Origin: an archaeon
GTDB taxonomy: Archaea; Asgardarchaeota; Thorarchaeia; Thorarchaeales; Thorarchaeaceae
Assembly: GCA_024275415.1 (NCBI GenBank)
Contig: JAJRZD010000060.1
Span: 1 to 15,702, forward strand
Direction of reading: 5' to 3'
Length of the DNA stretch: 15,702 bases
In this document: positions 1 through 14,758 of the stretch, in pieces
Numbering within the stretch: the first letter of the stretch is position 1
How the letters are laid out: the number at the start of each line of letters is the position of its first letter
Program-made: the position numbers and the translations under genes
Notes under the pieces: model-generated
The model's input: only the letters and a program-made list of their open reading frames with translations
Database searches by the model: none
What the model was told of the DNA's origin: nothing

Positions 1-89
1 CCCTGGTGGACATGCGCGTCCACGACGTCAACGTGGTAGCAGACCTCGACTAGCACGACCCGAACAACCCCTCTGCTCCACCGCCGACA
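1..89 (+). repeat. Conserved cassette anchor repeat, copy 1 (type A; cut by window edge; in-frame TAG at 51-53)
   Basis: Frame +3 reads LVDMRVHDVNVVADLD*HDPNNPSAPPPT. Positions 1-60 match 10981-11040 at 55/60 nt. Confidence 0.95.
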
Positions 90-122
90 GGGGACTCTTC
101 CGATGGGAAGGGCTTATTTGCA

Positions 123-891: not shown

Positions 892-1431
892 ATGAATACG
901 TTAATATCATCGATAATATCGAGTATGTTGGCTGTTTTTTCAGTCAGTTCCCTTTATTTTGGATCAAATACGAGGGGACCAATGATATTGCAGCAGTTTG
1001 GAAAAACAGTTCTCAAGAGAACTTGGCGTCTTCTTGCACTAGCCGAACTAAACGTTGCTACAATCTCATGGTTCTGCTTCTTCTTCCTACTAGAACTGCC
1101 TTTCGATACATCAATAAATTCGGCGACGACAACGGCCCTAGATATTTTCCTCTTTTTGTCCCTTCTATCTGTACTTGTTATATTTGTTGAACGAGGTCAC
1201 ATTAAAGCCCCTTATCGAACTATTAGATCGGATGCTGATTTATTTGCTCTCGAGATGGAACGATCAGAGAACCAATTGAAAACTCTTGAGGATATCATTG
1301 TACGAATCGAAACTAACCCAAGAATCTCCAAAGAGAGTGCCAAGGACTTCCTATTGAACCTAAGCACTAGGAACGATGAAGTGGGTCTGAGATCTCGGAC
1401 ATATTTGGAATCTATGGAACGGAGTCAATGA
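892..1431 (+). CDS. Cassette 1 partner membrane protein (putative immunity), TM helices plus C-terminal helical domain
   Basis: ATG 892 with GAGGA at 880-884 overlapping the upstream stop. C-terminal LSTRNDEVG resembles LLNRTDEVG in the cassette 6 partner. Confidence 0.8.
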   Translation: MNTLISSIISSMLAVFSVSSLYFGSNTRGPMILQQFGKTVLKRTWRLLALAELNVATISWFCFFFLLELPFDTSINSATTTALDIFLFLSLLSVLVIFVERGHIKAPYRTIRSDADLFALEMERSENQLKTLEDIIVRIETNPRISKESAKDFLLNLSTRNDEVGLRSRTYLESMERSQ

Positions 1432-1453
1432 GATAAACCGAGTTCTTGGATTA

Positions 1454-2311
1454 TTGCAAGTCCTCGACACCATCGTCATTGGAGCTGGGAGGTTCTACTC
1501 CTCTGGGCTGAGCGAGATGCGCCTCCACGACATCAACGTCGTCACTGACCTCAACGAGCACGATCCCAACTCGTCTACTCCTGATGAGCCTGTTGAATAT
1601 GATGAGACTGGGATACCAACAGAAATTGAAAAGCGCAGAACAGATTTGATTCTTGAACCAATAGCTGTATCTGTTACAGCGGTCTGGCAAGTGGTTGATT
1701 TATTGCCTTGGCTAGTGTTATCTTTCACTACTGATAGTATTGATTTCATCATGAAAGTGGATCTTTTAGGTACCATTCAGCTTGATACATTGGCAATATC
1801 AATACCAATCATCGAAGCCATGTCACAAGCAGAGCTTGATGTGACTGCCGAAAAGGTGAATGACTACACAAGATTGGTATTCTCCTTTACTGTGCCGTTC
1901 ATAGTCGGACAGCTCGTGGTTCAGAGTTTGAGATTTCTCGAGAATATGAGTTGGGATCCTGTAAAGATGGGAATTGGAATGATGGCATGGCTTGCACTAT
2001 GGCTTAGCTACATCACCATCCTTGAGAATCTCGTTCGTGATGGAGAACTGCATCCGTGGGGTGTAGCCTATAACTTTCTGGGAATCGCAGTATCGCTTTT
2101 GCCGGGACTACGCAGCGGACTATCAACGGCAGGTAATCTTGTTAGGACTCTTCAGAAATTTTACTTGGGCAGCCTGCTCGAGTCTGTATATACAGGTGGG
2201 AGAATAAGAAGCGCTATATGGACTACTGCAATTGCACTCTTGAAGGTATTTGCATTTGCTACATGTTTGACCATGTATGTACAATTGATATCTCATGGAT
2301 TCAATGTGTAG
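1454..2311 (+). CDS. Cassette 2 ORF: anchor plus divergent variable module
   Basis: 285-aa ORF from TTG. Motifs YDET, a degenerate W..VDLLPWL in place of WTGWWP, and VDLLG, then a hydrophobic C-terminal half. Confidence 0.8.
   Translation: MQVLDTIVIGAGRFYSSGLSEMRLHDINVVTDLNEHDPNSSTPDEPVEYDETGIPTEIEKRRTDLILEPIAVSVTAVWQVVDLLPWLVLSFTTDSIDFIMKVDLLGTIQLDTLAISIPIIEAMSQAELDVTAEKVNDYTRLVFSFTVPFIVGQLVVQSLRFLENMSWDPVKMGIGMMAWLALWLSYITILENLVRDGELHPWGVAYNFLGIAVSLLPGLRSGLSTAGNLVRTLQKFYLGSLLESVYTGGRIRSAIWTTAIALLKVFAFATCLTMYVQLISHGFNV
1463..1604 (+). repeat. Cassette anchor repeat, copy 2 (type B)
   Basis: Encodes LDTIVIGAGRFYSSGLSEMRLHDINVVTDLNEHDPNSSTPDEPVEYD. 1577-1604 is identical to 13543-13570 (28 nt). 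Confidence 0.92.
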
Positions 2312-2317
2312 AGGTGA
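2311..2317 (+). promoter_or_regulatory. Shine-Dalgarno GAGGTGA for cassette 2 partner
   Basis: GAGGTGA overlaps the cassette 2 stop and ends 4 nt before ATG 2322. Confidence 0.7.
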
Positions 2318-2321
2318 CAAA

Positions 2322-2633
2322 ATGGATGCAATATTGCTGTTCGCGATGGTCATTGTGATATGTATAACTCTTTTAGTCACATCAACCTACTACGCACAAA
2401 ACTTGGATAGAATCCCGCAAGGACTGAAGCGGATGGGTGCCTACCTCTTTGCATCACAAAGAAGAGAGATAATAGTTTGGGAATCTCTTGGCATCTTGAT
2501 CCTTCTCGTTTTTGTGGTTCCCGCAGCATTCGTTTTTAGTGTTTCCGTGTTACCGTTGGTGGTTATTGCATGCATCTTTCTTCCTATAATGATATTTCTA
2601 ACCATTTCCCTGGGGGAGGAAAGACACTATTAA
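2322..2633 (+). CDS. Cassette 2 partner small membrane protein (putative immunity)
   Basis: The RBS favours ATG 2322 over 2295. About 103 aa with ~3 hydrophobic segments. Confidence 0.78.
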   Translation: MDAILLFAMVIVICITLLVTSTYYAQNLDRIPQGLKRMGAYLFASQRREIIVWESLGILILLVFVVPAAFVFSVSVLPLVVIACIFLPIMIFLTISLGEERHY

Positions 2634-2747
2634 CGGCACGATGGAGAACCTTCACAAGCTGCTCTCGAAACAATGGCTACTCAAGAATGAAATTCTATGA
2701 TAGGACTGTCTTCCACGGCTCCAGTTTGACCTTGTGCTCCATAGGGG

Positions 2748-2911
2748 GACAATGTCTTTCGGGTCATCAAGTACGTGGGGGTCCTGGGCTACCGCATGGA
2801 CAGCTACACCCTCGTGGACATGCGCGTCCACGACATCAACGTCGTCACAGACCTCGACCAGCACGACCCGAACTCAGCTACTCCGCCACCGACGCAGGAT
2901 CCGCCCGCTGG
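2748..2911 (+). repeat. Cassette anchor repeat, copy 3 (type A)
   Basis: Encodes DNVFRVIKYVGVLGYRMDSYTLVDMRVHDINVVTDLDQHDPNSATPPPTQDPPA. 2760-2842 matches 5966-6048 at 81/83 nt. Confidence 0.95.
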
Positions 2912-3731
2912 GGGAGAGCCAGAACCCGTGGTGTATGATGGTACAAAAGGAACTCCAAAACTAGGAAGCACGTTTATGGTGGAAGATTTCTTTGAATCAA
3001 ACTCCCAAGATGTTCAGGCTTATTGGACAGGATGGTGGCCTGTGTTGCACATTCGATTCTCATTCTATCCTATACCTGAAATCAATTTGATTTTGCATTT
3101 TACTATTGATATACTTGGTTCCTTCTCCATTGACCCAGAAACTGTTCTAAACATCCTGAATCCAGTGTTGATGACATATGGAGTCAAGAACGCTCAGAAT
3201 GTTGACAATGTGTATCAAATGGTCATGCGTGATATCGTAGATTATCTGTTTGGCATGGGAGGCGTTGCTTGGCGTGTTGCATGGGCTGCCGCCCTGACAC
3301 TGAAACTGACATCCTTAGTTATGGATACGGGCCCATGGGGTGCAGCCTTATTTGCGGCAAATACATTAATCTATGTGGGGGCCTTGATTGCTGGCGCCGC
3401 TCAGGTCGTTCAAGACGCCCTTGACGGGATTTTGCATCCTCTCGTTGCAGCATTCATTCTTATCCTGAATGCCTTAGCAATAGCTGTGGATGGCTTAAAC
3501 AAACTATATTCGTCTGCTAAAGGTGATACAGAACTCAATAGACTACAGGAAGCGGGAAACCTATTAACCGAGACCGAAATAGAGAACAAACATCGTGGAG
3601 TCTGTTTCAGATATGCTGCCGGCCTTGTGCTGATGATAACCGCTTGCGGTTTAGTGACTGCAGGTGTTGGACTCCTAGTGTGGTTCTTGGCACAAGGAAT
3701 CGATATAACATATGACACAGTAGCTACATAA
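2775..3731 (+). CDS. Cassette 3 ORF: anchor plus variable module
   Basis: 318-aa ORF from GTG, with in-frame TAG at 2742 upstream. Motifs YDGT, YWTGWWPVLH, IDILG, then Ala/Gly-rich hydrophobic helices and a C-terminal TM segment. Confidence 0.82.
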   Translation: MGVLGYRMDSYTLVDMRVHDINVVTDLDQHDPNSATPPPTQDPPAGGEPEPVVYDGTKGTPKLGSTFMVEDFFESNSQDVQAYWTGWWPVLHIRFSFYPIPEINLILHFTIDILGSFSIDPETVLNILNPVLMTYGVKNAQNVDNVYQMVMRDIVDYLFGMGGVAWRVAWAAALTLKLTSLVMDTGPWGAALFAANTLIYVGALIAGAAQVVQDALDGILHPLVAAFILILNALAIAVDGLNKLYSSAKGDTELNRLQEAGNLLTETEIENKHRGVCFRYAAGLVLMITACGLVTAGVGLLVWFLAQGIDITYDTVAT

Positions 3732-3745
3732 GGAGAAATACAAGA

Positions 3746-4120
3746 ATGCTAGAGGTTTTCATTCTCTTCTGTTTAGGATTACTTCTATTGCTCCCACCAC
3801 AGGTGTTCCTAATCTCTGGAGAATCTCAACTTATGTCCTTTTACAGATATGGAATTCCAATAGAAGATGAAAATGCAATCAGACTAAAGCGCATCGTTGA
3901 GAGGAAGGGTGGTTTGCTACTCCTCGCTCTGATTCTTTATCTGCCATATTTGGGGCTCCCGTTATTTGCATTAATAGTATTTTCTGATGCAGTTAATCTA
4001 TATTTGTTTCCTGCTTTATTGTTTGCAGGATTCTTAATATATGCCCAAAATACAGGAACGATTCTTGCATTCCTCATCAAACTAAAACAAGCGAAGTCAA
4101 CCAGTCAAGAACCAGCTTAG
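3746..4120 (+). CDS. Cassette 3 partner membrane protein (putative immunity)
   Basis: AGGAG at 3731-3735 overlaps the upstream stop. 124 aa, Leu-rich, ~3 TM segments. Confidence 0.8.
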   Translation: MLEVFILFCLGLLLLLPPQVFLISGESQLMSFYRYGIPIEDENAIRLKRIVERKGGLLLLALILYLPYLGLPLFALIVFSDAVNLYLFPALLFAGFLIYAQNTGTILAFLIKLKQAKSTSQEPA

Positions 4121-4230
4121 ATCCGTCCTTTCTCAGGTAGTTTCTATCCCTTTTAAGGACATAAATAGGGTGACCTCTGCCGGATGGCATTAGGCTTCTC
4201 CCCTGATGGCAATGTGAGCCCGTGCTGTAG

Positions 4231-4400
4231 GAGGTGAACAGCGCCTCAAGAATCATCGATACCATTGCAATCCGAGCTGGGCGCATTACTCATACGGCTT
4301 GAGCGAGATGTGCGTCCATGACATCAACGTCGTCACTGACCTCGACCAGCACGACCCGGACTCGTCAATCCCACCCCCAACGAAGGATCCACCTGCGGGA
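4231..4400 (+). repeat. Cassette anchor repeat, copy 4 (type B; 1-nt deletion at ~4285)
   Basis: EVNSASRIIDTIAIRAGR (frame +1) shifts to YSYGLSEMCVHDINVVTDLDQHDPDSSIPPPTKDPPA (frame +3), colinear with copy 2. Confidence 0.9.
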
Positions 4401-5226
4401 CAAACTCAACAAACCATCACGCATGATGGAACCCTGGATAGCAAAACTGAGGTCACGAAATATAAAAGCCAAGCAACTGTAGGTTCGAAGTTTGAAGAAA
4501 CGAGCAACATGATTTCAGTTTACTGGACTGGTTGGTGGCCATTGCTTCATTTTGAGATACCGCAGGAGACCATCCCAGATGTTGCTTTATCAATTTACAT
4601 CACATTGGATATACTAGGCAACATTCAAGTTCAATCCTTCAATATTCAATTCCTAGGCCTTGAAGATATGAATGCCTCTGAAGGCGATCAACTCGTATCT
4701 GCTATTCGACCCTCAAGCAATAGTATTGTCGGAACAGCATCGTCTTGGAGTTACCTCTTGACTATTTCAGGCATCTTCTACTCGACTGCTAAACTCATTT
4801 CGCTATACATGGTTCTTGGCAATACATGGCAGGAGCTAGCTTTTTGGGCTGCGATAGGTTTGTGTATTGCTACATTATTACCCGGACTATTTCTTCTTGC
4901 ACAAGCTGTAGCGGGTGTAATAGCAGACCCACTTCATTCAGCTCTTTACTTCTTTGGCGCTGCACTTGCTGCTCTATATACATTCGGTGCCAATAGCAAG
5001 GCAATAGATGATTATGGGCTCGAAGAGTGAAGGTGCATCCAGATTTCTTCGATTCTTCAAGGATGATTCTAGGAGTCCCTATCAAGCAGATCAACGGTGG
5101 CAGAATGCAGGATTGAAAGGTCGAGTGCATTTTGGGATAATGATGGTCCAACTCTCTGCGTTGGTAGCATTAACTATAATAGCTACAGGCTTCTTTCTAG
5201 GATGGGTTCGGTCATGGTTTGTGTAG
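4231..5226 (+). pseudogene. Cassette 4 module, frameshifted (ORFs 4299-5030 and 5008-5226)
   Basis: Motifs HDGT, YWTGWWPLLH, LDILG. FGANSKAID joined to MIMGSK...GLKGRVHFGIMMVQL aligns with uninterrupted cassette 9 IGANKAAVDKMI...GFEGRTHIGLMVAQL. The shift lies within 5006-5028. Confidence 0.8.
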
Positions 5227-5244
5227 TTGGAGAGAATAGTTTAG

Positions 5245-5703
5245 ATGAATGAAACGAGAAATACAATGGAGATGTTAGAATTACTGCAGTCAATCACTGA
5301 AAACGTTATCTTCCTATCTATTGCCTTTGGTGCAGCTGGACTGCTATGGTTGCTTGGAGCCCTTTACAGGTATCGAGGAACAGTCCTTCTAAGTCAACTG
5401 TCGCGAGATCAAATCGACCAAGCTAGGGGATTTGGGTCATGGTATGCAAAAAACATCACAGGAAATCCGAGGTCTGTTCTCTATTCAATGGCACATTACA
5501 CATTGATCCCTTTGACTTTCTTGATAGCTGGGTTCATATTTGCGCCATTCGAATTCGATTTGGTGCTCGAGCGCATCTTGCCCGTCTTTCCATTCTTTGT
5601 GATTCTGGGGCTAGTATGTGGCATAGATTTCCGGTATCGATGGTGGGGGACGGGTAAACCAGAACCTATGGAAAGTGCTACCCACGAAAACCATGAAGGC
5701 TAA
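5245..5703 (+). CDS. Cassette 4 partner membrane protein (WYxxxI family, putative immunity)
   Basis: 152 aa with TM helices. GFGSWYAKNITGNPRSVLYSMAH is similar to the partners of cassettes 5 and 9. Confidence 0.82.
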   Translation: MNETRNTMEMLELLQSITENVIFLSIAFGAAGLLWLLGALYRYRGTVLLSQLSRDQIDQARGFGSWYAKNITGNPRSVLYSMAHYTLIPLTFLIAGFIFAPFEFDLVLERILPVFPFFVILGLVCGIDFRYRWWGTGKPEPMESATHENHEG

Positions 5704-5773
5704 CATTTGTCACCTGCTTGGAGAGAATTACTTGAATATGGTTCTTTAGCAATCGCCTACAGTAGCCTCTGGT

Positions 5774-5950
5774 ATGAAGCACTTTTATGTCTATCAAGAC
5801 ACCCAGAACGGAGGCTCGTACTCGGAACTCATGCTACCTGTACAAATCCTTCACCAAGACGGGGAAGTTGTGGTGGGGCCCGTACCAGGGCGGTGACGGT
5901 GCCGTCTTCGCAAGCATCGACGGGTAGGGTCGTCCCAACCCATCGGTGAG
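5774..5950 (+). pseudogene. Degraded remnant of the upstream constant (trunk) region of the parent protein
   Basis: High-GC3 reading MKHFYVYQDTQNGGSYSELM / YLYKSFTKTGKLWWGPYQGGDGAVFASID / VGSSQPIGE runs into cassette 5 if frameshifts at ~5834 and ~5921 are allowed. Confidence 0.5.
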
Positions 5951-6112
5951 GTGGAGAACGCCTCCCGGGTCATCACGTACGTGGGGGTCCTGGGCTACCG
6001 CATGGACAGCTACAACCTCGTGGACATGCGCGTCCACGACATCAACGTGGTAGCAGACCTGAACGAGCACGATCCCAATAACCCCTCAACCCCGCCGCCA
6101 ACCCATGACCCG
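5945..6112 (+). repeat. Cassette anchor repeat, copy 5 (type A)
   Basis: Encodes GEVENASRVITYVGVLGYRMDSYNLVDMRVHDINVVADLNEHDPNNPSTPPPTHDP. Confidence 0.95.
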
Positions 6113-6892
6113 GACGAATCATTGGTCCATGATGGAACTACTGTTGGAACGAGCGATGAGGCTCTTTGTGTTCTAGGGGGATATATTGATGACCTATTTG
6201 CTTCGATTGCAGGTGAGATTTCTGTTTGGTGGACAGGATGGTGGCCGACTTTACATATCCAAATCTCGAAAGTGATAACAAGTGCTATCACGATAGACCT
6301 ACACATTACAGTTGATATTCTAGGCAACCTAGAATTCGATACTATTGACTATAAAATAAGTGGATATGAATCGCTGAGTGAAGATGATTCTGAAGCAGCT
6401 GCCCACGCTGTTGTTGAATCTTCAAGATGGGCATTGGATACCGCCATTGTATTATCCGCTGCTTCCATGACTCTTGCATGGTTGGCAGTTGATATCCTAG
6501 CAGATATAGCCACACCATTGACTGAAAACATCTTCTGGGTGACACTTGGTATTGCAATGGTTTCAACTTTCACAGCTTGGGGTCTAATTATCTGGAAAGC
6601 ACAACAACTAGGTGTCCCAAAGTGGGTTCGAGCGTTAGGATTTCTTGCGTCTGCATTAACACTTCTGTGGTCGGGGAGTCGGAACTATAATACAGCTGCT
6701 GCGTTAGTAGATGAGTGTCACTTCACAAGAAAGGTTACTGACTACTTTGGAGATCTTTGGTCTTGGGATTTCATAAGGAATAATTATAACAATGTGCGAG
6801 TTCGGACTCATGTTGGTTATGCTTTTGCGAGGATTGTCTGTGCTGTGTCCGCATTTGTTATATTTGCAGGATTATGGATGGGATGGATATAG
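5951..6892 (+). CDS. Cassette 5 ORF: anchor plus variable module
   Basis: 313-aa ORF from GTG. Motifs HDGT, WWTGWWPTLH, VDILG, hydrophobic helices, and RVRTHVG before a terminal TM segment. Confidence 0.82.
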   Translation: MENASRVITYVGVLGYRMDSYNLVDMRVHDINVVADLNEHDPNNPSTPPPTHDPDESLVHDGTTVGTSDEALCVLGGYIDDLFASIAGEISVWWTGWWPTLHIQISKVITSAITIDLHITVDILGNLEFDTIDYKISGYESLSEDDSEAAAHAVVESSRWALDTAIVLSAASMTLAWLAVDILADIATPLTENIFWVTLGIAMVSTFTAWGLIIWKAQQLGVPKWVRALGFLASALTLLWSGSRNYNTAAALVDECHFTRKVTDYFGDLWSWDFIRNNYNNVRVRTHVGYAFARIVCAVSAFVIFAGLWMGWI

Positions 6893-6936
6893 ATGCAGTA
6901 TTGCTGCTACATTTTCTTCTTAGATTATCAATTATC

Positions 6937-6943
6937 AGGAGGT
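6937..6943 (+). promoter_or_regulatory. Shine-Dalgarno AGGAGGT for cassette 5 partner
   Basis: AGGAGGT ends 8 nt before ATG 6952. Confidence 0.7.
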
Positions 6944-6951
6944 ATGATGAG

Positions 6952-7341
6952 ATGTACGGAGTTCTTATAACGGCAATCACTGGGTGCTTCATCGTATTCT
7001 CTATAACAGGGTTCTACCTTTATAGAAAAGGTTGGGAGTCTGCACAAGATTCGATTCTCTCAAATGGGAACATTCCATTGAATGCTAGAGGCTTGTGGTA
7101 CATCAGGAACATCTCCACAGTTCCTCGTGCAATAGCCTATCATGTCATTGAGGGGTCATTTCCAATTCTTGGATTTCTCATCATTTGCTATTTAGCAATC
7201 TACGAGTATTTCTATATCATTTTACTGACAACAGGATGGCTAGTGATTGTAAGCATATCTAGAGGGATAATTCAAGGAAATATCCATTATAAGCGAAATA
7301 AGGAGGTTCTTGATAAATTACGTCAATGTCAGTCTTGTTAG
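6952..7341 (+). CDS. Cassette 5 partner membrane protein (WYxxxI family, putative immunity)
   Basis: Start moved from 6874 to 6952 on RBS evidence. Contains RGLWYIRNISTVPRAIAYH and ~3 TM segments. Confidence 0.8.
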   Translation: MYGVLITAITGCFIVFSITGFYLYRKGWESAQDSILSNGNIPLNARGLWYIRNISTVPRAIAYHVIEGSFPILGFLIICYLAIYEYFYIILLTTGWLVIVSISRGIIQGNIHYKRNKEVLDKLRQCQSC

Positions 7342-7364
7342 TATCGGCGTAGTAGCAACTTGAC

Positions 7365-7917
7365 ATGAGTTTACTTGATTCATTTTGAGTCACGCTCTTG
7401 ACTTTCTTCGTGTGGGATTTGCTTGGACCTCTATGATTGATGAGTCTTAGCCCAGTCAAATTCTTCAGCACAGTGTCGACAGAAATTATGGTATCAGCAA
7501 AGTTTTGGACTGCGTCCATATGCAAGGGATCTGTTCACTGCTTCACTAATAGCTTATACGCTTTCTTCATTGGCGGTGATATACTTTATCGCACAAGCAT
7601 ATCTTGACGGCTCATTGTACTATCTGGATGCATTCATTGGACTGGTGGTAATGATATGAGGAATTCTCTTCGCTGGCAATGCCATCTCGACGCAATCCAT
7701 TTATGGAACAGTAATGATCTTCTTTTGGCTCCCCATTCTATCTGTTGGAATCCTTTGGCCAGAATAGCTGACTTCGTTTGTATCAGGCCTCCAATTCTGG
7801 ATTCTACTTTCGTTAACACTGGCTTTTCTAAGCGTCATGTGCAGCAGCCCCGATTCAGCTGGATGTTTCGAAGAGGCATATGACCTACTGATAAAGGATG
7901 ACGAGGAGGTTCAGTGA
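7365..7917 (+). pseudogene. Degraded polytopic membrane-protein gene (extra partner-like)
   Basis: Frame +3 reads MSLLDSF*VTLLTFFVWDLLGPL*LMSL. Frame +1 then reads ...LWYQQSFGLRPYARDLFTASLIAY...VVMI*GILFAG...ILWPE*LTSF...KDDEEVQ*. Hydrophobic coding character continues across the stops at 7386, 7434, 7657 and 7765. Confidence 0.6.
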
Positions 7918-8009
7918 GTCCGGTGCAGCGACCGTCACCCTCCGTAGCATCGACTCGAACTTTGACAGGGACGCTCTGGTGATACTCATGACCAAGCGGG
8001 GATGAAGCC

Positions 8010-8863
8010 ATGTTCACAGACCTCGACCAGCAGGATTCCAATCCACCTGCCCTACCTCCTCCAACACAAGATGACGATGTAGTAATTGAAGCAGATGGCA
8101 CTACTCAAGGTGCTCCACCTGCGAATAATCCATATTTGGCTCAGTTAAACCAAGTTATTGTCGATCTAACATCTACAATTGTGATGTATTGGGAAGGATG
8201 GTGGCCTGTCCTCCACATCTTGATAGATATGGCACTACCCGACTCTAGTTCCTGTGCTTTACATCTCACCATAGATCTACTAGGATTCAAAAACATGAAA
8301 TCCTTATCGCTAGATATCCTAGGGTTGAATGATATGCCTGAGAGCGATGGGGATGCGATAGTTAGTGATATCGACTCAGAATTTGCTGACTTGGTAGGTA
8401 TTATCGCTGCGGCCGTTGGAGTAGCTATGCAAGTTGCCTATTTCGCTCTAAAAGCTTTAGTGCAAATACTTCGGAGAAGGAATGGGTCTTCTGGGCAGCC
8501 TTGGTTGGCTATACTTTATTATATGTAAGCTATGTGGGATTGAGCTGGTACTATGCTCGTCTAACAGCAGCTAACGCGTTGTGTCAGGCGGTAATTTTCT
8601 TCGGAATGGCATTGATGTGTATCCTTAGTTTTGGCTGGGAGAATCATCTTACAACTCAATTCATGAAAGGAAAGGCTGCAGGCAGGATATGGAATTACTT
8701 TGATGACTTCTATAAGAACAACAAGTTAGCGAACATCAACAAATCCGGTTTTGAGGGTAGATCTCATGCAGGATTGCTGGTGATGAATGTGATTTGTTTT
8801 GCGTCCATAGTAGCCATTACATGTGGTATTGCATTCCTGGGGGGTGATAAGAACGATACATAG
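8010..8863 (+). pseudogene. Cassette 6 module, frameshifted (ORFs 8010-8528 and 8501-8863)
   Basis: Motifs ADGT, YWEGWWPVLH, IDLLG. Frame +2 from ~8462 reads ANTSEKEWVFWAAL (compare cassette 4 GNTWQELAFWAAI) through GFEGRSHAGLL. Implies a net 1-nt loss near 8450-8465. Confidence 0.78.
8014..8070 (+). repeat. Cassette anchor repeat, copy 6 (5'-truncated)
   Basis: TCACAGACCTCGACCAGCA (8014-8032) is identical to copy 3. Encodes TDLDQQDSNPPALPPPTQD. Confidence 0.85.
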
Positions 8864-8913
8864 TAATATGATTGCAGAAAACAGGACAATTGGAGGAATT
8901 TGAATTGAGTGAA

Positions 8914-9480
8914 ATGGAACTAATGTACCTATTCTGGTTGTTTTGTGCGACTCTGATAGTGTTCTTGCCAATTATCTACTATGTGATGGCTGGAACTGCA
9001 ATGAGAGGAAACTTGAAAGAAGAGGCTGTACCGAAATCTACTGATTTCGGCAGGAAGTATGGCGGCTTTCTTGAAAAACAAACTTGTTCAAGACAAAAAC
9101 TGACCAATATTCTTGCTTTCACAAGCCCTCTTACTGTCTATTGGGTTCTTTCCTTCCTTCTAGTTCCCCAGGCTTTCATAGAGCTTCTCAGCTACTCATG
9201 GTGGTTTTGGCCTGTTCTTGCCCTCTTTGGATATATAAGTATCACATCATCAGAAATTGAGTATTACGAAGAGCTTGGTGAATCAACATATCAACAAATC
9301 CTACAACAAGAAAATCCCGTTGAAGAAGCACTCGTACTTGTAAGGCATTACGAAAAGAAACCTATACACCAGAACTATGCGAGGGCGAAGGAACATCTTC
9401 TGAATAGGACTGATGAAGTTGGTGATGTCTTCCGCGAGGCCTATGCAAGATTGGAAGTTGAATCCATTGATTCGGACTAG
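8914..9480 (+). CDS. Cassette 6 partner: membrane protein with C-terminal helical domain
   Basis: GGAGGA at 8892-8897 suggests a start at TTG 8905 or ATG 8914 (ORF open from 8872). About 3 TM segments, then LLNRTDEVGDVFREAY. Confidence 0.8.
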   Translation: MELMYLFWLFCATLIVFLPIIYYVMAGTAMRGNLKEEAVPKSTDFGRKYGGFLEKQTCSRQKLTNILAFTSPLTVYWVLSFLLVPQAFIELLSYSWWFWPVLALFGYISITSSEIEYYEELGESTYQQILQQENPVEEALVLVRHYEKKPIHQNYARAKEHLLNRTDEVGDVFREAYARLEVESIDSD

Positions 9481-9551
9481 AAACGAAAGGTTGACGCAGG
9501 CATCTTCTTAAGCGGCTAAACCAGGCAATTCGGGCGAAGTAGTGCATATGC

Positions 9552-9650
9552 CGTGGACATGCGCGTCCACGACGTCAACGTGGTCGCCGATTTGAACGAG
9601 CAAAATCCAAACTCGTCCACCCCACCGCCAACGCAGGACCCGCCCGCTGG
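9552..9650 (+). repeat. Cassette anchor repeat, copy 7
   Basis: Encodes VDMRVHDVNVVADLNEQNPNSSTPPPTQDPPA. Confidence 0.93.
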
Positions 9651-10420
9651 AACAGATTATACGATGACTGGACCTGACGGTACAACAGAAGGTCTGGGTG
9701 AATACATCAATGAGGAGATGGATGAGAATATGCCAAGAATCATATCTCCTGAAGAGGTGAATGGTGAGGTTACTCAGTGGTGGACAGGACCCTGGCCTCG
9801 TCTTCATTCCAAAATCGATTATATGACAGAAGATGGCTATAGGGCAAAATATCACATCAGTAATGATTTGCTTGGAAATGTGCAGGTGGAGGAGGAGATG
9901 CAGCTAACGACCGAGTTGGCTGACGATCCAATTAATGACCCCGGCTTTTCAGCGTCTATTGCCGACGTTTACTTCAATACGCTAGTGACATTGTGGAGTG
10001 TTGAAATGGTTCTAATCATAACTGACATATTCACTGTCTGGGCTTGCGTTGCGTGGGAAAAGAATCCCTCATGGTGGCCACTGGCAGCAATTACCGGAGC
10101 TGCTTGGACAGCGGCTTTCAGCATCTACCTCGGATTGATGATTAATGAGATCCTATCCGAAACAGACAACCCGTTTGTACGTTTTTGGGCAATTGCACTA
10201 CTAGGCATCTCAATGGTCTTTGGATGGTCTATGACAGATTTCCTAAAAGACCTCGGAGTGTACCTCATCCAAAAGGGGATTCATTCATTCATTCACTGAG
10301 TTCTTTCTTGAACGAAATGCGCCGTCTTTAAGTTGGATGCTCTGGAAATTACTATGCACATTGATAGTGTTCATCATGGCGGGTCTAGTACTGACGATAA
10401 CTCTTCTGGAGATACTGTAG
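9553..10420 (+). pseudogene. Cassette 7 module, C-terminus out of frame at (ATTC)4 (ORF 9553-10299 plus 10295-10420)
   Basis: Motifs PDGT, WWTGPWPRLH, NDLLG. Removing one ATTC unit extends the ORF through TEFFLERNAPSLSWMLWKLLCTLIVFIMAGLVLTITLLEIL to TAG 10418-10420. Confidence 0.78.
10279..10294 (+). repeat. Tetranucleotide microsatellite (ATTC)4
   Basis: ATTCATTCATTCATTC read directly from the sequence, immediately before the premature TGA at 10297-10299. Confidence 0.9.
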
Positions 10421-10468
10421 AAACACCGATGTAAGAGAATAAATAGTTGAAAGAGGGACAAGTGCAAG

Positions 10469-10795
10469 ATGCAAACCATAGATCTCGATCCAGTGTCGAT
10501 GTACTTGATTGTATGTGGGATTCTAGTGTTCATATTGCCAATGCTTCTTGCGGGTTCTATTCTGCATTGGGTTCGAAAAGACTCGGTAGCACAGGAGATG
10601 ACCCGCAAGGCGGAACGTCTCATCAGCATGACCACGGGTAGCGTTGGAGTCCTGTTCCTGTTAGGATCAATCCCTATATTCAGCAACAAAGTAACAGGAT
10701 TTCATCTGATATCTGGCTTTGCTATATTGGCAATATCGACATGGACTGGAACATGGTATGCCATGAAACGAGTGCGTGACGCAAACGGAAGATGA
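10469..10795 (+). CDS. Cassette 7 partner small membrane protein (putative immunity)
   Basis: 108 aa with ~3 TM segments. Follows the restored cassette 7 stop by 48 nt. Confidence 0.78.
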   Translation: MQTIDLDPVSMYLIVCGILVFILPMLLAGSILHWVRKDSVAQEMTRKAERLISMTTGSVGVLFLLGSIPIFSNKVTGFHLISGFAILAISTWTGTWYAMKRVRDANGR

Positions 10796-10934
10796 TTATG
10801 AATCACCATTTTCACAAGGTTCAGGTCCAGCCCCTGACTGGTCGCCGCTGATAATGATATCGCCTGGCCCGGTGTCTGGGAGCAGCTATTTGTCAATTCA
10901 TGCTCTGGTAAGATGGAGAGTGATCTGATGCAAC

Positions 10935-11831
10935 TTGCATGGGAAACTGGGAATCCTTGGCTATCGGTACAGTAGCTACACCCTCGTGGACATGCGCGTC
11001 CACGACGTCAACGTGGTAGCAGACCTCAACGGGCACGATCCTGACTCTTCCACTCTGCCACCGACGCAGGATCCACCTGCTGGTGAAGAGCAAGCTGTGC
11101 AGGATTACGATGGTACACAAAATGGAGGTACGTCCACGGGATACCACATGCAGGCTGCAGATACTAGTCTAAGCGATGGTATGAATGATCTTCAATTATA
11201 TTGGACAGGTTGGTGGCCTCTATTACATGTCGTGTATAGTATTCCAATATCTGGTGATGGAGTTCAGTTGACTCTTAGCTTTCACATTGCCAAGAATCTT
11301 TTAGGGATAAGTGAATACACTGCTTTGCAGATTAGTGGGGATGAGTCATTTTATACTGATGCAGTTCCAGTCTTGTTGGCGTTGGCTTTTGAAAACATAT
11401 TTGCGCTAGTAATGATAAATGCAGTTCTTGTCGCATCCAATATTCTTGAGGCAGTTGTGAATTCAGCAAGTTACATTCCGGGAGCACTCATTGGCGCAAT
11501 TTCATTAGTTGTGGCAACCGTTACAGTATCATATCTTGCACCTGTCCATTTCATTCAAGGAGAAATCGAAGCAGGAAGAGCCAGTAACATAGTAGCGTTT
11601 GGTTTCCTATTGGAAGTAGCCTGGGCATGGCTAAATTTGGGAATGGATATGAAAGGTATCTATCAAACAGGCGGCTTATTCTTGCATAGCAAATTAATGA
11701 TAAGCAACTATTTGCCAGCATGTAGGCTAAAAGACTTCCTGAAAATCACGAAACTTGCCTACGTATTGGTTCTAAGCATCGGAGTTGCATTGCTTGCCAC
11801 AGCCATCTGGTATCTTCTGAACTCCTTTTAG
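10935..11831 (+). CDS. Cassette 8 ORF: anchor plus variable module
   Basis: 298-aa ORF from TTG. Motifs YDGT, YWTGWWPLLH, KNLLG, hydrophobic helices and a terminal TM segment. Confidence 0.82.
   Translation: MHGKLGILGYRYSSYTLVDMRVHDVNVVADLNGHDPDSSTLPPTQDPPAGEEQAVQDYDGTQNGGTSTGYHMQAADTSLSDGMNDLQLYWTGWWPLLHVVYSIPISGDGVQLTLSFHIAKNLLGISEYTALQISGDESFYTDAVPVLLALAFENIFALVMINAVLVASNILEAVVNSASYIPGALIGAISLVVATVTVSYLAPVHFIQGEIEAGRASNIVAFGFLLEVAWAWLNLGMDMKGIYQTGGLFLHSKLMISNYLPACRLKDFLKITKLAYVLVLSIGVALLATAIWYLLNSF
10947..11083 (+). repeat. Cassette anchor repeat, copy 8 (type A variant)
   Basis: Encodes LGILGYRYSSYTLVDMRVHDVNVVADLNGHDPDSSTLPPTQDPPA. Confidence 0.95.
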
Positions 11832-11903
11832 GGGATATTCTCGGAAACGAACCTCGTACACTAGGGAATAATCAATATAAGTGAAGTGAGATGAGAGCCT
11901 ACC

Positions 11904-12476
11904 ATGCAGGTATTCGATATCTTTGGCAGTGATCTAATAGAAGGCATTGCATTCGCAACGCTACTATCTGTTTCAGTAATTGTCAATCACCTCTCCAAAA
12001 GAATTGTAAAAGAGTCAATCGAATACGAGAGGACTGGCATTGAGAACATATCTTCTATGATATCCCGATTTGCCAACAAGCTAACAGTAGTGGGTTCTAA
12101 TGATTATCTCGCATCGAGACGAACTTTTCTGCGGCTTCATTTAGCAATCACTGTCCTTTGTCTAGGATTAATCCTGCTATTTACGTTCACTCCACTTGCG
12201 ATTGTGACATTCATTTTCTACCTATGTGTTTTCTCGGAAATGCTATACGACTTCCGCAACCGAGGGTACTTGGAAGACACAGTCGAATATCTTGTACAGA
12301 GAGTAGATGAATCGGCTAATGGTGTGCGTGAACTTGAAAAGATTCGCATGGAGATGCAGGATTTGATAGCCTACAACAAAGATGCCTTTGCTGAATTCCT
12401 AGAAATCCTAGCTCATAGAAGTGATGCTGTCAGCGAAAAAGCAAGAGAGATATCAAGATGTGTTAGAGAATCATGA
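11904..12476 (+). CDS. Cassette 8 partner 1: membrane protein with C-terminal helical domain
   Basis: 190 aa with ~3 TM segments. C-terminal LAHRSDAVSEKAREI resembles the partners of cassettes 1 and 6. Confidence 0.8.
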   Translation: MQVFDIFGSDLIEGIAFATLLSVSVIVNHLSKRIVKESIEYERTGIENISSMISRFANKLTVVGSNDYLASRRTFLRLHLAITVLCLGLILLFTFTPLAIVTFIFYLCVFSEMLYDFRNRGYLEDTVEYLVQRVDESANGVRELEKIRMEMQDLIAYNKDAFAEFLEILAHRSDAVSEKAREISRCVRES

Positions 12477-12492
12477 GTGTTGGGAGGGTCTC

Positions 12493-12939
12493 ATGGTGAG
12501 TGATTTACTTACATTTTCTCTTCTCGCTGTGCTATTACTCCTGTACTTTATCACTCTCCGTGTATTCTGTTTCCTCATATTGGTATTGTTATATCGATTT
12601 ACAGGACTTGGCATGTCTGCTGACTCGATCAAGTACTTCAAAGAACACCAGCTCCGTATGACATTGATATACTTCCTCGTGCCTGTGTTGGCAACTATCG
12701 GCATTGGAGTTTTCTCCTATATGATGCTCCTTATACCCTTAGCCAATGGAGACTTATGGCCCTTCTATTGGGCGAGCGGTGGAGTGCTTATCACTGATGC
12801 AGCACGTCAGTTTCTTCTATCTGTTATTTCACTTATCGGGATAGTTATGAGCTCGGTGTTCAGTCTAATGCGGTTGGGTCTTCCAAATCCATTGAAGTTG
12901 GGTCAATACTGGTGTGGATACAAACCTATGAGATTGTAG
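12493..12939 (+). CDS. Extra membrane protein (orphan partner-like)
   Basis: GGAGGGT at 12483-12489 favours ATG 12493 over 12421. About 3-4 TM segments. Confidence 0.75.
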   Translation: MVSDLLTFSLLAVLLLLYFITLRVFCFLILVLLYRFTGLGMSADSIKYFKEHQLRMTLIYFLVPVLATIGIGVFSYMMLLIPLANGDLWPFYWASGGVLITDAARQFLLSVISLIGIVMSSVFSLMRLGLPNPLKLGQYWCGYKPMRL

Positions 12940-12958
12940 TTGGCACCTATGGAGACGG

Positions 12959-13513
12959 ATGAATATGCTTTCCCTCTTTGCATTTATCGTATTAGCCATT
13001 ACATTCGGAATCTCATTACAGCTCGGTATTCTATGGACGGGGGATATTGGCGAAACCGAAATGGGATTCCTTCGACGAATTCTTTTTGGATCAAAAAAAG
13101 CATCCATTTTGACTTCGAACACCATCCTCATTGGGGGCTTTCTTGCGGTGCTCATTTTTGACTCACAGACAAATCATCTTGAGGTTATCATTTCCATCGT
13201 TCTCCTTGAATTAGCATTCCTCCTCATCGGGTCACATGTATTCCTGAATTGGCATATTGGATCTTATTGTGTCGCAGGGAGGAACAAGATGCAAATCCGT
13301 CTTCTTCGTGCTCAGACTGATCCTGCTCTCAAACAAATAGTCGCCAGACATACCATGTTGTCAGTGATAAATGAGATTCGCCAAGGGAATCGAGCCTCAG
13401 CGCAAGTGCTAAGGGATGCCATCACTTGTGGAGATTCTGAAAGTGAACTCCTTTTAAGACAAGGACTGGAGATTGATGAAGACCTTGTTAGAAGCATCCT
13501 AGACGAGTCCTAG
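12959..13513 (+). CDS. Extra membrane protein with soluble C-terminal tail (orphan partner-like)
   Basis: GGAG at 12951-12954. 184 aa with ~3 TM segments followed by a charged helical tail. Confidence 0.77.
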   Translation: MNMLSLFAFIVLAITFGISLQLGILWTGDIGETEMGFLRRILFGSKKASILTSNTILIGGFLAVLIFDSQTNHLEVIISIVLLELAFLLIGSHVFLNWHIGSYCVAGRNKMQIRLLRAQTDPALKQIVARHTMLSVINEIRQGNRASAQVLRDAITCGDSESELLLRQGLEIDEDLVRSILDES

Positions 13514-13521
13514 TCATCCAT

Positions 13522-13570
13522 CAGCACGACCCGGACTCGTCCACTCCTGATGAGCCTGTTGAATATGATG
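13522..13570 (+). repeat. Cassette anchor repeat, copy 9 (strongly 5'-truncated)
   Basis: 13522-13541 is identical to 4347-4366, and 13543-13570 is identical to 1577-1604. Encodes QHDPDSSTPDEPVEYD. Confidence 0.9.
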
Positions 13571-13608
13571 GAACTCCCGGGGGATTAGAATACAGACCGC
13601 AAACCAGA

Positions 13609-14361
13609 ATGAAGGACACTGTAAATCAACTTTTCAATGACATGGCTGGATATATCTCAATTTATTGGACAGGTTGGTGGCCCGAATTGCATTTCGTGAT
13701 TAATCATGAGATAGCCACCGATATCACAATTTTCTCGGACTTGCCAATCGATGTTCTTAGTGTCATTCATTTGAGGAGTTTCAATCTTGAGTTTCTGGAT
13801 ATCAAGAACAAAACCGATGATGCGATCTCTATCCTCATTGTAGATATTCAATCAGTCACTAATAATACAATCTCCGGATCCACTGCTGACTATTATCTGG
13901 CAGGAGCAGAAATATCTTGGGTTTCTGCTGAGGTGATTGCTATGTGGGCGCCACCAACCACTGCCTCAGAAATTGCATTTTGGGATGCACTGGCAATATT
14001 TACCGCTCTAGCAATCGCAGGTCTTGTGTTCTTAGCACAGGATGTGGCCAACTGCAACGCCGGCCCATATCTTTCTGCGATGATATTCTTTGCAATGGCA
14101 CTTGTGTCCATGAAAGAGATTGGAGCGAATAAAGCAGCAGTTGATAAGATGATCACAGAAAGTCCTAAGACAGTAAGAGACTTTAACCTATTCAAAGACA
14201 AACGCTTTCGAACCTCATGGGCAAAGAAAGGGTTTGAAGGTCGGACGCATATCGGTCTTATGGTCGCTCAATTGTTGGTTCTTCTTACCATCATCACGAT
14301 TGCATGGGGTTTCATGGCTGAATGGGCGTTTGATGTGTTCCGATCAACGAGTCCATCCTGA
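13609..14361 (+). CDS. Cassette 9 variable module (homology starts at 13522, same frame)
   Basis: YDGT lies just upstream of the ATG. Motifs YWTGWWPELH, IDVLS, EIAFWDAL, GFEGRTHIGL and a terminal TM segment. Confidence 0.8.
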   Translation: MKDTVNQLFNDMAGYISIYWTGWWPELHFVINHEIATDITIFSDLPIDVLSVIHLRSFNLEFLDIKNKTDDAISILIVDIQSVTNNTISGSTADYYLAGAEISWVSAEVIAMWAPPTTASEIAFWDALAIFTALAIAGLVFLAQDVANCNAGPYLSAMIFFAMALVSMKEIGANKAAVDKMITESPKTVRDFNLFKDKRFRTSWAKKGFEGRTHIGLMVAQLLVLLTIITIAWGFMAEWAFDVFRSTSPS

Positions 14362-14403
14362 GAGAGAGAATCGTAGTAACGATAAGAAAGGAGAAGTGAA
14401 CTC

Positions 14404-14758
14404 ATGGTGATGACGGGGTTGATGACGATGACATTTCTCATAGCCGGGGCTATTTGGCTTGTATTGCTAAAAGCCATCATGGACGGTAAGAAGATTCAAG
14501 ACCGGGGATTGGATGAAAAACCTCTTGGTTTCGAATAGAACCGAAACGTGGTACGCGAAGCATATAACTAATGTGAAGCGTTCCATTCTGTTCTCCGTTT
14601 TTCATTTTGCCACAATCCCTTTCGTATTCCTGTCTTGTGTCCTGTTGTTCGAACCAGACTATTTCCAGCAATTGAGTCCTTCGATATTGCCATTACTCCT
14701 CTTTTTTGTGTTAGTAGGAATAGGTTCAGGTTTTGACAGGCGATATACAAAACGGTAA
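14404..14758 (+). pseudogene. Cassette 9 partner (WYxxxI family), frameshifted
   Basis: AAGGAG at 14388-14393. ATG 14404 reads MVMTGLMTMTFLIAGAIWLVLLKAIMDGKKIQDRGLDEKPLGFE*. Deleting 14536-14545 gives GFETWYAKHIT, colinear with GFGSWYAKNIT of the cassette 4 partner. Confidence 0.75.

What the first reader, a model, noticed from the sequence alone, without database searches (positions are those of the whole stretch)
4299..14758. Tip subfamily co-varies with partner subfamily, supporting cognate pairing
Tips 4, 6 and 9 share GLKGRVHFG / GFEGRSHAG / GFEGRTHIG, and tip 5 has RVRTHVG, just before the last TM helix. Tips 4, 6 and 9 also share E[LWI][AV]FW[AD]A. Partners 4, 5 and 9 independently share SWYAKNITGNPRSVLYSMAH / LWYIRNISTVPRAIAYH / TWYAKHITNVKRSILFSVFH. 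Tips outside this group have partners without the motif. Related tips therefore travel with related partners despite being non-adjacent, as expected for co-evolving effector-immunity or receptor-ligand pairs.
Basis: partly seen in the sequence, partly recalled or inferred. Interest (0 to 1): 0.72.

Follow-up and report, generated by a model that had tools for sequence, protein, structure and literature searches.

The report
Matched membrane tails and partner genes
In this Asgard (Thorarchaeota) archaeon, spare swappable membrane "tails" of a large surface protein each travel with their own type of small membrane partner gene, as toxin-immunity pairs do in bacteria; the pairing holds across 25 genomes, but neither binding nor toxicity has been shown.

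Summary
The window is a whole contig. It carries nine "tip + partner" cassettes and one decayed cassette.

I collected 104 tip/partner pairs from 25 genomes of one Thorarchaeota family. Tip similarity and partner similarity are strongly linked: Mantel r = 0.68, against a permutation maximum of 0.08. A partner tracks its own upstream tip (r = 0.69) but not the next tip downstream (r = 0.00). Tip and partner trees are congruent.

- Tips 4 and 9, tip 5 and tip 6 are three separate matched types.
- Tip 6 has a partner without the WY motif. The same partner type recurs with tip-6-type tips in two other places.
- The motif-to-motif link is not one-to-one.
- 18 of 77 very similar tip pairs have unrelated partners.

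Inheritance of each cassette as a block would give the same pattern. Binding has only a weak predicted-complex pass. Every evaluable intact tip has a partner, while at least 32 partner-like genes stand without a tip of their own, which favours an immunity-like role.

This scan has already noted the same system on other DNA (e1-5445711, e1-5456125 and others).

The parts
3..881 (+). Cassette 1 tip. The junction is cut by the contig start and carries an in-frame TAG at 51-53. WTGWWP motif at 216. Variable membrane tail follows.
   Evidence: The nearest tip is C110 84206-85216 (z 13). DNA block 126-1413 is 73% identical to a cassette in G015.
892..1431 (+). Partner 1: a membrane core plus the C-terminal 'R.DEVG' helical module.
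   Evidence: Partner z is 10 to the partner of the related C110 tip.
1391..2311 (+). Cassette 2 tip. It has no WTGWWP motif. Its tail carries GGRIRS before the last helix, making it a distant member of the GR superfamily.
2295..2633 (+). Partner 2. Its start overlaps the tip's end.
2745..3731 (+). Cassette 3 tip, intact.
3746..4120 (+). Partner 3.
   Evidence: The similar tip in G013 has an unrelated partner.
4218..5226 (+). Cassette 4 tip, in two frames (4218-5030 and 5008-5226) with a frameshift near 5010-5020. GLKGRVHFG at 5110-5136.
   Evidence: Tip subfamily 20, together with tip 9 and G009 L039:1976.
5245..5703 (+). Partner 4, intact. WY block at 5437-5496.
   Evidence: Partner subfamily 53.
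5897..6892 (+). Cassette 5 tip, intact. RVRTHVG at 6797-6817. Modelled as a three-stranded sheet plus four long helices.
   Evidence: Tip subfamily 21, together with tips from G034 and G037.
6874..7341 (+). Partner 5, intact. WY block at 7093-7143. Modelled as all-helical, with the WY block on a short helix between membrane helices 1 and 2.
   Evidence: Partner subfamily 54 in all three genomes.
7437..7908 (+). Decayed cassette '5b'. A remnant of a C102-type tip (7437-7713) is fused to a remnant of that tip's own partner type (7711-7908).
   Evidence: tblastn 54-61% and 56% identity, E 4e-25 and 2e-19.
7992..8863 (+). Cassette 6 tip, in two frames (7992-8528 and 8390-8863) with a frameshift near 8470-8480. 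GFEGRSHAG at 8747-8773.
   Evidence: Tip subfamily 19, together with the tip of the 2120-codon open frame that holds G009's main gene.
8872..9480 (+). Partner 6, intact. It has FGRKYGG..R (9046-9102) where the others have the WY block, plus a C-terminal R.DEVG module (9406-9453).
   Evidence: The same partner subfamily (43) follows the G009 tip and a tip remnant in C110.
9520..10299 (+). Cassette 7 tip. Its tail is shorter than the others.
10469..10795 (+). Partner 7.
   Evidence: The similar tip in G052 has an unrelated partner.
10929..11831 (+). Cassette 8 tip, intact.
11904..12476 (+). Partner 8, with the R.D.V module.
12421..13513 (+). Two further partner-like genes with no tip of their own (12421-12939 and 12959-13513).
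   Evidence: 12959-13513 matches the partner of a G036 cassette, E 4e-16. Also.
13492..14361 (+). Cassette 9 tip. The junction is degenerate. GFEGRTHIG at 14230-14256.
14513..14758 (+). Partner 9, which lacks its first membrane helix. WY block at 14546-14605.

Best explanation
The window is a row of promoter-less spare 3' ends ('tips') for a large surface protein. Within the 400 Asgard genomes searched, the tip family occurs in one family only. Earlier notes of this scan name the lineage Thorarchaeota; I did not test that.

Anatomy:
- Each tip begins with a shared junction (..VDMRVHDINVV..HDPNSSTPPPTQDPP.. followed by WTGWWP).
- After the junction comes a variable tail of about 205 residues, modelled as a small sheet plus four long membrane helices.
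- Each tip is followed at once by a small partner gene, modelled as three membrane helices with a short helix between the first and second.

Shown here:
- Tip plus partner is one inherited and shuffled unit.
- Tip type predicts partner type across genomes, while the order of cassettes is scrambled.

Inferred:
- Recombination at the shared junction replaces the active tip and brings its partner along.
- The partner acts specifically on its own tip inside the membrane, most likely as an immunity-like neutraliser of a membrane-active tail.

Within this picture, tips 4/9, 5 and 6 and their partners are three related but distinct matched types of one tip superfamily (invariant Arg before the last helix) and one partner superfamily.
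For: Co-variation:
- 104 pairs from 25 genomes give Mantel r 0.68, against a permutation maximum of 0.076. The relation is graded: the share of similar partners rises from 1.3% when tip z is below 3 to 88% when tip z is 50 or more.
- In the 43 cassettes that have a following cassette, the partner correlates with its own tip (r 0.69, 0 of 2000 permutations), with the next tip at r 0.00, and tip i with tip i+1 at r -0.02.
- Cluster agreement is ARI 0.60-0.68, against a permutation maximum of 0.08. Of 26 tip subfamilies with two or more members, 14 have a single partner subfamily, and 13 of those span two or more genomes.
- For 20 cassettes of the GR superfamily, patristic distances correlate at r 0.62 (0 of 5000 permutations), and the two trees share 6 splits against 0.22 expected.

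The three matched types:
- Tips 4 and 9, with G009 L039:1976, go with partner type 53.
- Tip 5, with tips from G034 and G037, goes with partner type 54.
- Tip 6, with the tip of G009's main gene, goes with partner type 43.
- A remnant of a tip-6-type tail lies just upstream of a tip-6-type partner in C110. The decayed cassette at 7437-7908 holds a matched tip remnant and partner remnant.

Block inheritance: DNA homology to a G015 cassette runs from 126 to 1413, that is from the variable tip to the end of the partner.

Asymmetry expected of immunity genes:
- 101 of 108 intact tips have a partner, and the other 7 are cut by contig ends.
- 33 extra open frames resemble partners, and 32 of them do not also resemble a tip tail.
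- Four frameshifted tips keep a partner reading frame downstream: full-length for three, and 167 aa against 191 aa in its relative for the fourth.

Partners diverge faster than tips: median identity 32% against 44%, and lower than the tip's in 57 of 69 comparisons.

Predicted complex of tip 5 with partner 5, verdict weak support:
- The median score was 0.57 (runs 0.57, 0.67, 0.00), and the best of 3 controls scored 0.00.
- The mark was reached by 58 of 80 solved complexes and by 2 of 110 mismatched pairs.
- Scores of 0.60 or under came from only 7 of those 80 solved complexes and from both mismatches that passed.
- My own alignments were used, so these counts hold only roughly.
- The runs agree in at least 0% of their contacts, and the partner's pLDDT is at least 63.
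Against: - Block inheritance alone predicts the co-variation. The only shared sequence to recombine on is the junction, so tip and partner would stay together with or without selection.
- Pairing is not strict. 18 of 77 tip pairs with z of 35 or more have partners with z below 6. One example is the G000 main tip against a G073 tip: 49% identical over 206 residues, with no detectable partner similarity.
- The quoted motifs are not a one-to-one code.
- No part matches a known toxin, immunity or any other family, by Pfam, NCBIfam or Foldseek.
- A tail of four hydrophobic helices behind an exported domain should anchor in the producer's own membrane. How it would reach another cell is unknown.
- The complex prediction is only a weak pass, and one of its three runs scored 0.00.
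Confidence: 0.5

Rival explanations
1. Linkage only. Tip and partner co-vary because each cassette is duplicated, transferred and recombined as one DNA block between junction repeats. The partner has a general role, or none tied to the tip type, and there is no type-specific interaction.
For: - The homology block runs from the variable tip to the end of the partner.
- Recombination has only the junction to act on.
- Many similar tips have unrelated partners.
- The motif link is not one-to-one.
Against: - Every evaluable intact tip keeps a partner, while partners persist without tips. This points to selection on the partner in relation to tips.
- Partner reading frames persist beside frameshifted tips: full-length for three, and 167 aa against 191 aa in its relative for the fourth.
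- Partner similarity follows the tip's C-terminal half (31%) more than its N-terminal half (7%), although physical proximity could also explain this.
- The predicted complex gave a weak pass: 0.57 against a best control of 0.00. The mark was reached by 58 of 80 solved complexes and 2 of 110 mismatched pairs. Scores of 0.60 or under came from only 7 of the 80 and from both mismatches. My own alignments were used. Run agreement was at least 0% of contacts, and partner pLDDT at least 63.
Confidence: 0.2
2. Self-recognition pair. Tip and partner form an allele-specific membrane complex that marks kin, in the manner of IdsD/IdsE of Proteus mirabilis (recalled from my own knowledge, not read here). 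Neither protein is a poison.
For: - The variable part is membrane-embedded in both proteins.
- Many types are present per genome, and arrays are shuffled between genomes.
- There is no toxin-like domain.
Against: - Partner-only genes and whole reserve arrays fit collecting immunities better than carrying an identity.
- The tip would have to reach the neighbour's membrane, and no transfer route is known.
- There is no homology to Ids proteins.
Confidence: 0.15
3. Obligate subunit. The partner is an assembly factor or second subunit of the membrane anchor or channel formed by the tip. Diversification would be driven by viruses or other agents that target the surface protein.
For: - Gene pairs are tight and often overlap, which suggests coupled translation.
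- Both proteins are helical membrane proteins.
- The complex prediction gave a weak pass, with the counts given.
Against: - This does not explain the partner genes that persist without a tip.
- It does not explain why the variable part is the buried tail while the exposed domain upstream of the junction stays conserved.
Confidence: 0.1

Closest known systems
Polymorphic toxin systems with orphan toxin/immunity cassettes (CdiA-CT/CdiI, Rhs, MafB), as defined by Zhang et al. 2012, PMC3482391
   Same: - A constant 5' gene body carries a swappable 3' tip.
- A conserved junction serves as the recombination point.
- Arrays of stand-alone tips each carry an adjacent small gene.
- The paper gives the same logic: cassettes occur as pairs so that one recombination event brings in both the new tip and its cognate gene.
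- Extra partner-only genes are present.
   Different: - No part belongs to a known toxin, immunity, pre-toxin or trafficking family.
- The tip is a four-helix membrane tail, not an enzyme.
- No secretion apparatus was identified.
- The host is an Asgard archaeon, and the paper describes such systems as generally rare in archaea.
- Toxicity and protection are untested.
Pore-forming colicins (A and E1 types) and the CdiA-CT of E. coli EC93, with their small membrane immunity proteins (my own knowledge)
   Same: A helical, membrane-inserting effector paired with a small immunity protein of several membrane helices that recognises it within the membrane. Specificity follows the effector type.
   Different: There is no sequence or fold similarity. 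The best Foldseek E-values are 0.055 for the tip and 2.2 for the partner. Here the tail is fused behind an exported surface domain, and the delivery route is unknown.
IdsD/IdsE self-recognition of Proteus mirabilis (my own knowledge)
   Same: Two membrane proteins whose variable stretches decide allele-restricted pairing.
   Different: There is no homology, no type VI secretion context and no cassette array of this form.
VARTIG module of Thermococcales (Makarova et al. 2021, PMC8416519)
   Same: An archaeal hypervariable module laid out like a polymorphic toxin system, with a large surface protein, a recombining C-terminal part and variable downstream genes.
   Different: In VARTIG the variable part is an extracellular Ig domain. 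Here it is a membrane tail with a matched small membrane partner. The lineage differs as well.

Membership tests
Polymorphic toxin system (Zhang et al. 2012) | A full-length gene with a constant 5' body for export and presentation and a variable 3' tip. | tested here: met
   C119 carries a 693-aa gene with an N-terminal hydrophobic signal-like segment. It is followed, with an overlap, by a 454-aa frame that ends in junction plus tip. Other genomes have single frames of 1040-2120 codons ending the same way.
Polymorphic toxin system (Zhang et al. 2012) | Stand-alone tip cassettes that share the junction with the full gene. | tested here: met
   There are nine junction copies in the window, 23 matches in the genome, and 152 junction hits in the loci from 29 genomes.
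Polymorphic toxin system (Zhang et al. 2012) | Each tip is followed by its own small gene, with roughly one-to-one mapping of types. | tested here: met
   101 of 101 evaluable intact tips have a partner. ARI is 0.60-0.68, and 14 of 26 multi-member tip subfamilies have a single partner type. There are exceptions: 18 of 77 very similar tip pairs have unrelated partners.
Polymorphic toxin system (Zhang et al. 2012) | The tip is a toxin domain. | tested here: inconclusive
   No known toxin family or fold was matched. Toxicity itself cannot be tested with these tools.
Polymorphic toxin system (Zhang et al. 2012) | The small gene protects specifically against its own tip. | not testable with these tools
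   The only evidence is a weak predicted-complex pass for tip 5 with partner 5: 0.57 against a best control of 0.00, with the counts given. No non-cognate comparison was possible.
Polymorphic toxin system (Zhang et al. 2012) | A dedicated delivery route (type V, VI or VII secretion, PVC and the like). | not tested
   Only the neighbourhood of the C119 gene was read, and nothing recognisable was seen there.
Pore-forming colicin / membrane immunity pair | A colicin-type helical pore-forming domain. | tested here: not met
   Foldseek against the PDB gave no match with E of 0.001 or less. Alpha-pore-forming toxins appear only as rows at E 0.17-1 with TM of 0.26 or less.
VARTIG (Thermococcales) | A hypervariable C-terminal Ig domain in an arCOG07710-type protein. 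| tested here: not met
   The variable part is modelled as a small sheet plus four membrane helices. There is no Ig or any other Pfam match.

The most novel reading that the evidence does not exclude
One family of Asgard archaea runs its own polymorphic effector/immunity (or identity) system. Specificity lies in membrane-embedded helices: a four-helix tail and a three-helix partner that diversify together into dozens of matched types. The types are kept as reserve cassettes and exchanged by recombination. Nothing in the system is homologous to the bacterial systems.
Probability: 0.45. Interest if true: 0.8.

Novelty: new variant of a known kind. Interest (0 to 1): 0.6.

Why it matters
Very little is known about how Asgard archaea, the closest known relatives of eukaryotes, compete with or recognise each other. 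Classical polymorphic toxin systems are described as generally rare in archaea (PMC3482391).

If these matched tail/partner modules are real effector-immunity or identity pairs, two things follow:
- They give a testable handle on the social biology of Thorarchaeota.
- They give a set of natural, type-specific helix-helix recognition pairs inside membranes.

It also shows that pairing is not absolute.

Tried and rejected
- **Family and fold searches.** Pfam and NCBIfam on tips, partners and the main gene found nothing above threshold. Foldseek on the tip and partner models (PDB for both, ESM Atlas for the tip) found nothing significant.
- **Literature.** I found no description of this system. 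The mBio 2019 survey of archaeal polymorphic toxins could not be fetched.
- **Sequencing runs.** None was listed for 4299-9480, so nothing can be said about expression.
- **Idea that tip 6 lost a WY partner.** I rejected this. The same partner type follows tip-6-type tips in G009, and follows a tip remnant in C110.
- **Idea that the GR.H motif pairs with the WY motif as a contact code.** This is not supported. H-type tips have WY partners in 6 of 10 cases, and WY partners also follow GR.N tips.
- **Single-linkage clustering of partners.** It chained half of them into one cluster. I replaced it with average linkage.
- **Re-calling partners by best homology.** This wrongly picked the next tip in two cases, so I kept only one correction, for C110.
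- **Cognate versus non-cognate complex predictions.** These could not be run because only one job was allowed.


Full report
**What is in the window.** The window is the whole of contig C39 of a 3.5-Mb, 127-contig genome. Earlier notes of this scan call the organism a Thorarchaeota (Asgard) archaeon; I did not test the taxon.

All the coding is on the + strand, in nine repeats of one plan:
- a conserved junction (..VDMRVHDINVV..HDPNSSTPPPTQDPP.., then WTGWWP);
- a variable hydrophobic tail of about 205 residues (the "tip");
- a small hydrophobic gene (the "partner") that starts within a few bases of the tip's stop, or overlaps it.

The full-length gene lies on another contig, C119. It consists of a 693-aa frame with a signal-like N-terminus, overlapped by a 454-aa frame that ends in the same junction plus a tip and is followed by a partner. 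More arrays lie on C110, C102, C53 and C96. Nothing here matches Pfam or NCBIfam.

**Checking the observation.** The similarities are far above what shuffled sequences give:
- tips 4-9, 4-6 and 6-9 have z of 21-43, and tip 5 against these has z of 8-16;
- partners 4-9 have z of 26-38, partners 4-5 z of 5-9, and partners 5-9 z of 6-7.

On the nine window pairs alone the tip and partner matrices correlate at r = 0.55, reached by 322 of 20000 permutations. That is suggestive but thin.

Tips 4 and 6 are frameshifted. Partner 9 lacks its first membrane helix. Partner 6 has no WY block. A decayed tenth cassette lies at 7437-7908.

**Widening the sample.** A search with the junction found matches in 29 of 87 genomes of the class. 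A search with the tip alignment found the family in 25 of 86 genomes of one family, and in none of 314 genomes of other Asgard families.

I fetched the arrays and called tips with a junction profile. I took the next open frame as the partner. This gave 104 intact pairs from 25 genomes. I then scored all tip-tip and partner-partner comparisons by Smith-Waterman z-score against shuffles.

**The co-variation is real and specific.**
- Tip and partner matrices correlate at r = 0.68, against a maximum of 0.076 in 2000 label permutations.
- The relation is graded. Partners are similar (z of 6 or more) in 1.3% of comparisons when tips are unrelated, in 16-26% at tip z of 10-25, in 51% at 25-50, and in 88% above 50.
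- The key control uses the 43 cassettes that are followed by another cassette. The partner correlates with its own upstream tip (r = 0.69), not with the tip that follows it (r = 0.00). Neighbouring tips are uncorrelated (r = -0.02).

So arrays are shuffled between genomes, and tip plus partner is the unit that stays together.

Average-linkage clusters agree at ARI 0.60-0.68, against a permutation maximum of 0.08. Of 26 tip subfamilies with two or more members, 14 have a single partner subfamily, and 13 of those span at least two genomes.

At the DNA level, homology between cassette 1 and a cassette of another genome of the same genus runs from 126 to 1413. That is from the start of the variable tail to just before the partner's stop.

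Tips 4, 5, 6 and 9 belong to one superfamily of about 20 sampled tips. An arginine before the last helix is invariant across the 16 of them that were aligned.

Within the superfamily there are separate matched types:
- tips 4 and 9, with a G009 cassette, go with partner type 53;
- tip 5, with cassettes from G034 and G037, goes with type 54;
- tip 6, with the tip at the end of the 2120-codon open frame that holds G009's main gene, goes with type 43.

Type 43 has FG(R/K)Y where the others have the WY block, and adds a C-terminal helical module. In C110 a 28-residue remnant of a tip-6-type tail (79% identical) lies just upstream of an intact tip-6-type partner. Tip 6 is therefore not a broken pairing. 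It is a third cognate type.

The decayed cassette at 7437-7908 holds a tip remnant and a partner remnant of the same C102 type.

Maximum-likelihood trees of the 20 tips and of their 20 partners share 6 splits, against 0.22 expected. Their patristic distances correlate at r = 0.62, reached by 0 of 5000 permutations.

**Limits of the pairing.**
- The two motifs are not a code. Of ten tips with R.H.(G/A), 6 have a WY..(N/H)(I/V) partner, and three such partners follow other tips. The 2x2 table is 6/4/3/91; the rows are not independent.
- Of 77 tip pairs with z of 35 or more, 18 have partners with z below 6. One example is the G000 main tip against a G073 tip: 49% identical over 206 residues, with no detectable partner similarity. 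Tips 3 and 7 of the window also have close relatives whose partners are unrelated.
- Partners evolve faster than tips. Median identity is 32% against 44%, and the partner's is lower in 57 of 69 comparisons. Some of these cases may therefore be divergence, but some look like replacement.

**Does co-variation mean cognate function?** Not by itself. The junction is the only shared sequence to recombine on, so anything between two junctions is inherited together.

Three further observations lean towards a functional tie:
1. All 101 evaluable intact tips have a partner; the other 7 are cut by contig ends. In contrast, 33 extra open frames resemble partners, and 32 of them do not also resemble a tip tail. 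Two of these lie in the window, at 12421-13513.
2. Four frameshifted tips keep a partner reading frame downstream: full-length for three, and 167 aa against 191 aa in its relative for the fourth.
3. Partner similarity follows the tip's C-terminal half (31% when only that half is similar) more than its N-terminal half (7%).

Partners that can stand alone beside tips that never do is the asymmetry expected of immunity genes and toxins.

The one complex prediction allowed, tip 5 with partner 5, gave weak support:
- the median score was 0.57 (runs 0.57, 0.67, 0.00), and the best of three controls scored 0.00;
- the mark was reached by 58 of 80 solved complexes and 2 of 110 mismatched pairs;
- scores of 0.60 or under came from only 7 of those 80 and from both mismatches that passed;
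- my own alignments were used, so the counts hold only roughly;
- the runs agree in at least 0% of contacts, and the partner's pLDDT is at least 63.

**Structure.**
- The tip model (pLDDT 78) is a three-stranded sheet followed by four long helices. A disordered loop precedes the last helix, and the invariant arginine sits at that helix's start.
- The partner model (pLDDT 84) is all-helical, with the WY block on a short helix between membrane helices 1 and 2.
- By the positive-inside rule both motifs would lie on the cytoplasmic face. This is my inference from the sequences and from the hydropathy profile.
- Neither model has a significant match among solved structures, nor does the tip model among Atlas models.

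**Comparison with what is known.** The layout is that of polymorphic toxin loci. Zhang et al. give the same logic for why cassettes come as pairs (PMC3482391). The functional analogy closest to a helical membrane tail with a small membrane partner is the pore-forming colicin or EC93 CdiA-CT with its membrane immunity protein. An alternative is the IdsD/IdsE identity pair (both from my own knowledge). VARTIG is an archaeal module with a similar layout but an Ig-type variable part (PMC8416519).

None of the defining families is matched, and toxicity, protection and delivery are all untested. I therefore file this as a new variant of the known kind, not as a member of any named family.

I found no paper describing the system. 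The scan itself has noted the same system before on other contigs and genomes, including the co-segregation of tip and partner types. My counts were made independently of those notes and agree with them.

**Verdict.** Matched tip/partner modules are real, and this was shown with a proper control. A specific interaction remains an inference.

Noticed in passing
window 7437-7908: A decayed tenth cassette lies between cassettes 5 and 6. A remnant of a tip (residues 51-146 of the C102 1513-2337 type) is joined directly to the C-terminal half of that type's partner, as if an internal deletion had removed the tip's tail and the partner's start.
   Followed up: yes
window 9406-9453, 1330-1428, 12370-12473, 13400-13510; also L073 second gene after the tip at 2540-3526: Many partners end in a shared helical module of about 55 residues with the pattern L..L..R.D.VG...R, which looks like a HEAT-type repeat. 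It is present or absent within one partner superfamily. In G007 it sits on a separate small gene after the partner.
   Followed up: partly
window 51-53: An in-frame TAG interrupts the junction of cassette 1 (..VADLD*HDPNN..). The contig itself starts inside this junction, so the assembly broke at the repeat.
   Followed up: no
window 15562-15702; G000 contigs C53 and C125: The last 141 bases of the window are identical to the start of C53 (+) and of C125 (-). This is a branch in the assembly graph inside a minus-strand gene for a repetitive coiled-coil protein. What follows the array is therefore ambiguous, and C53 carries another tip/partner cassette on the opposite strand.
   Followed up: partly
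window 2570-2938 and 5707-5949; L011 4650-5135: Long open frames in other reading frames across the G+C-rich stretch upstream of junctions 3 and 5 repeat alternative-frame ORFs of the main gene. Some cassettes therefore carry 130-250 extra bases of the constant body (repeat family D4: 2743, 5949, 10915).
   Followed up: partly
L011 2544-5959 (G000 C119 102543-105958): The main gene of this genome is in two overlapping frames (693 aa and 454 aa), whereas relatives have single frames of 1040-2120 codons. This may be a frameshift, an assembly error or a real split.
   Followed up: no
G000 C96 1423-1872 and flanks: A truncated tip cassette sits between genes whose products look like nucleotidyltransferase/HEPN-type pairs when read by eye. 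No search was run.
   Followed up: no
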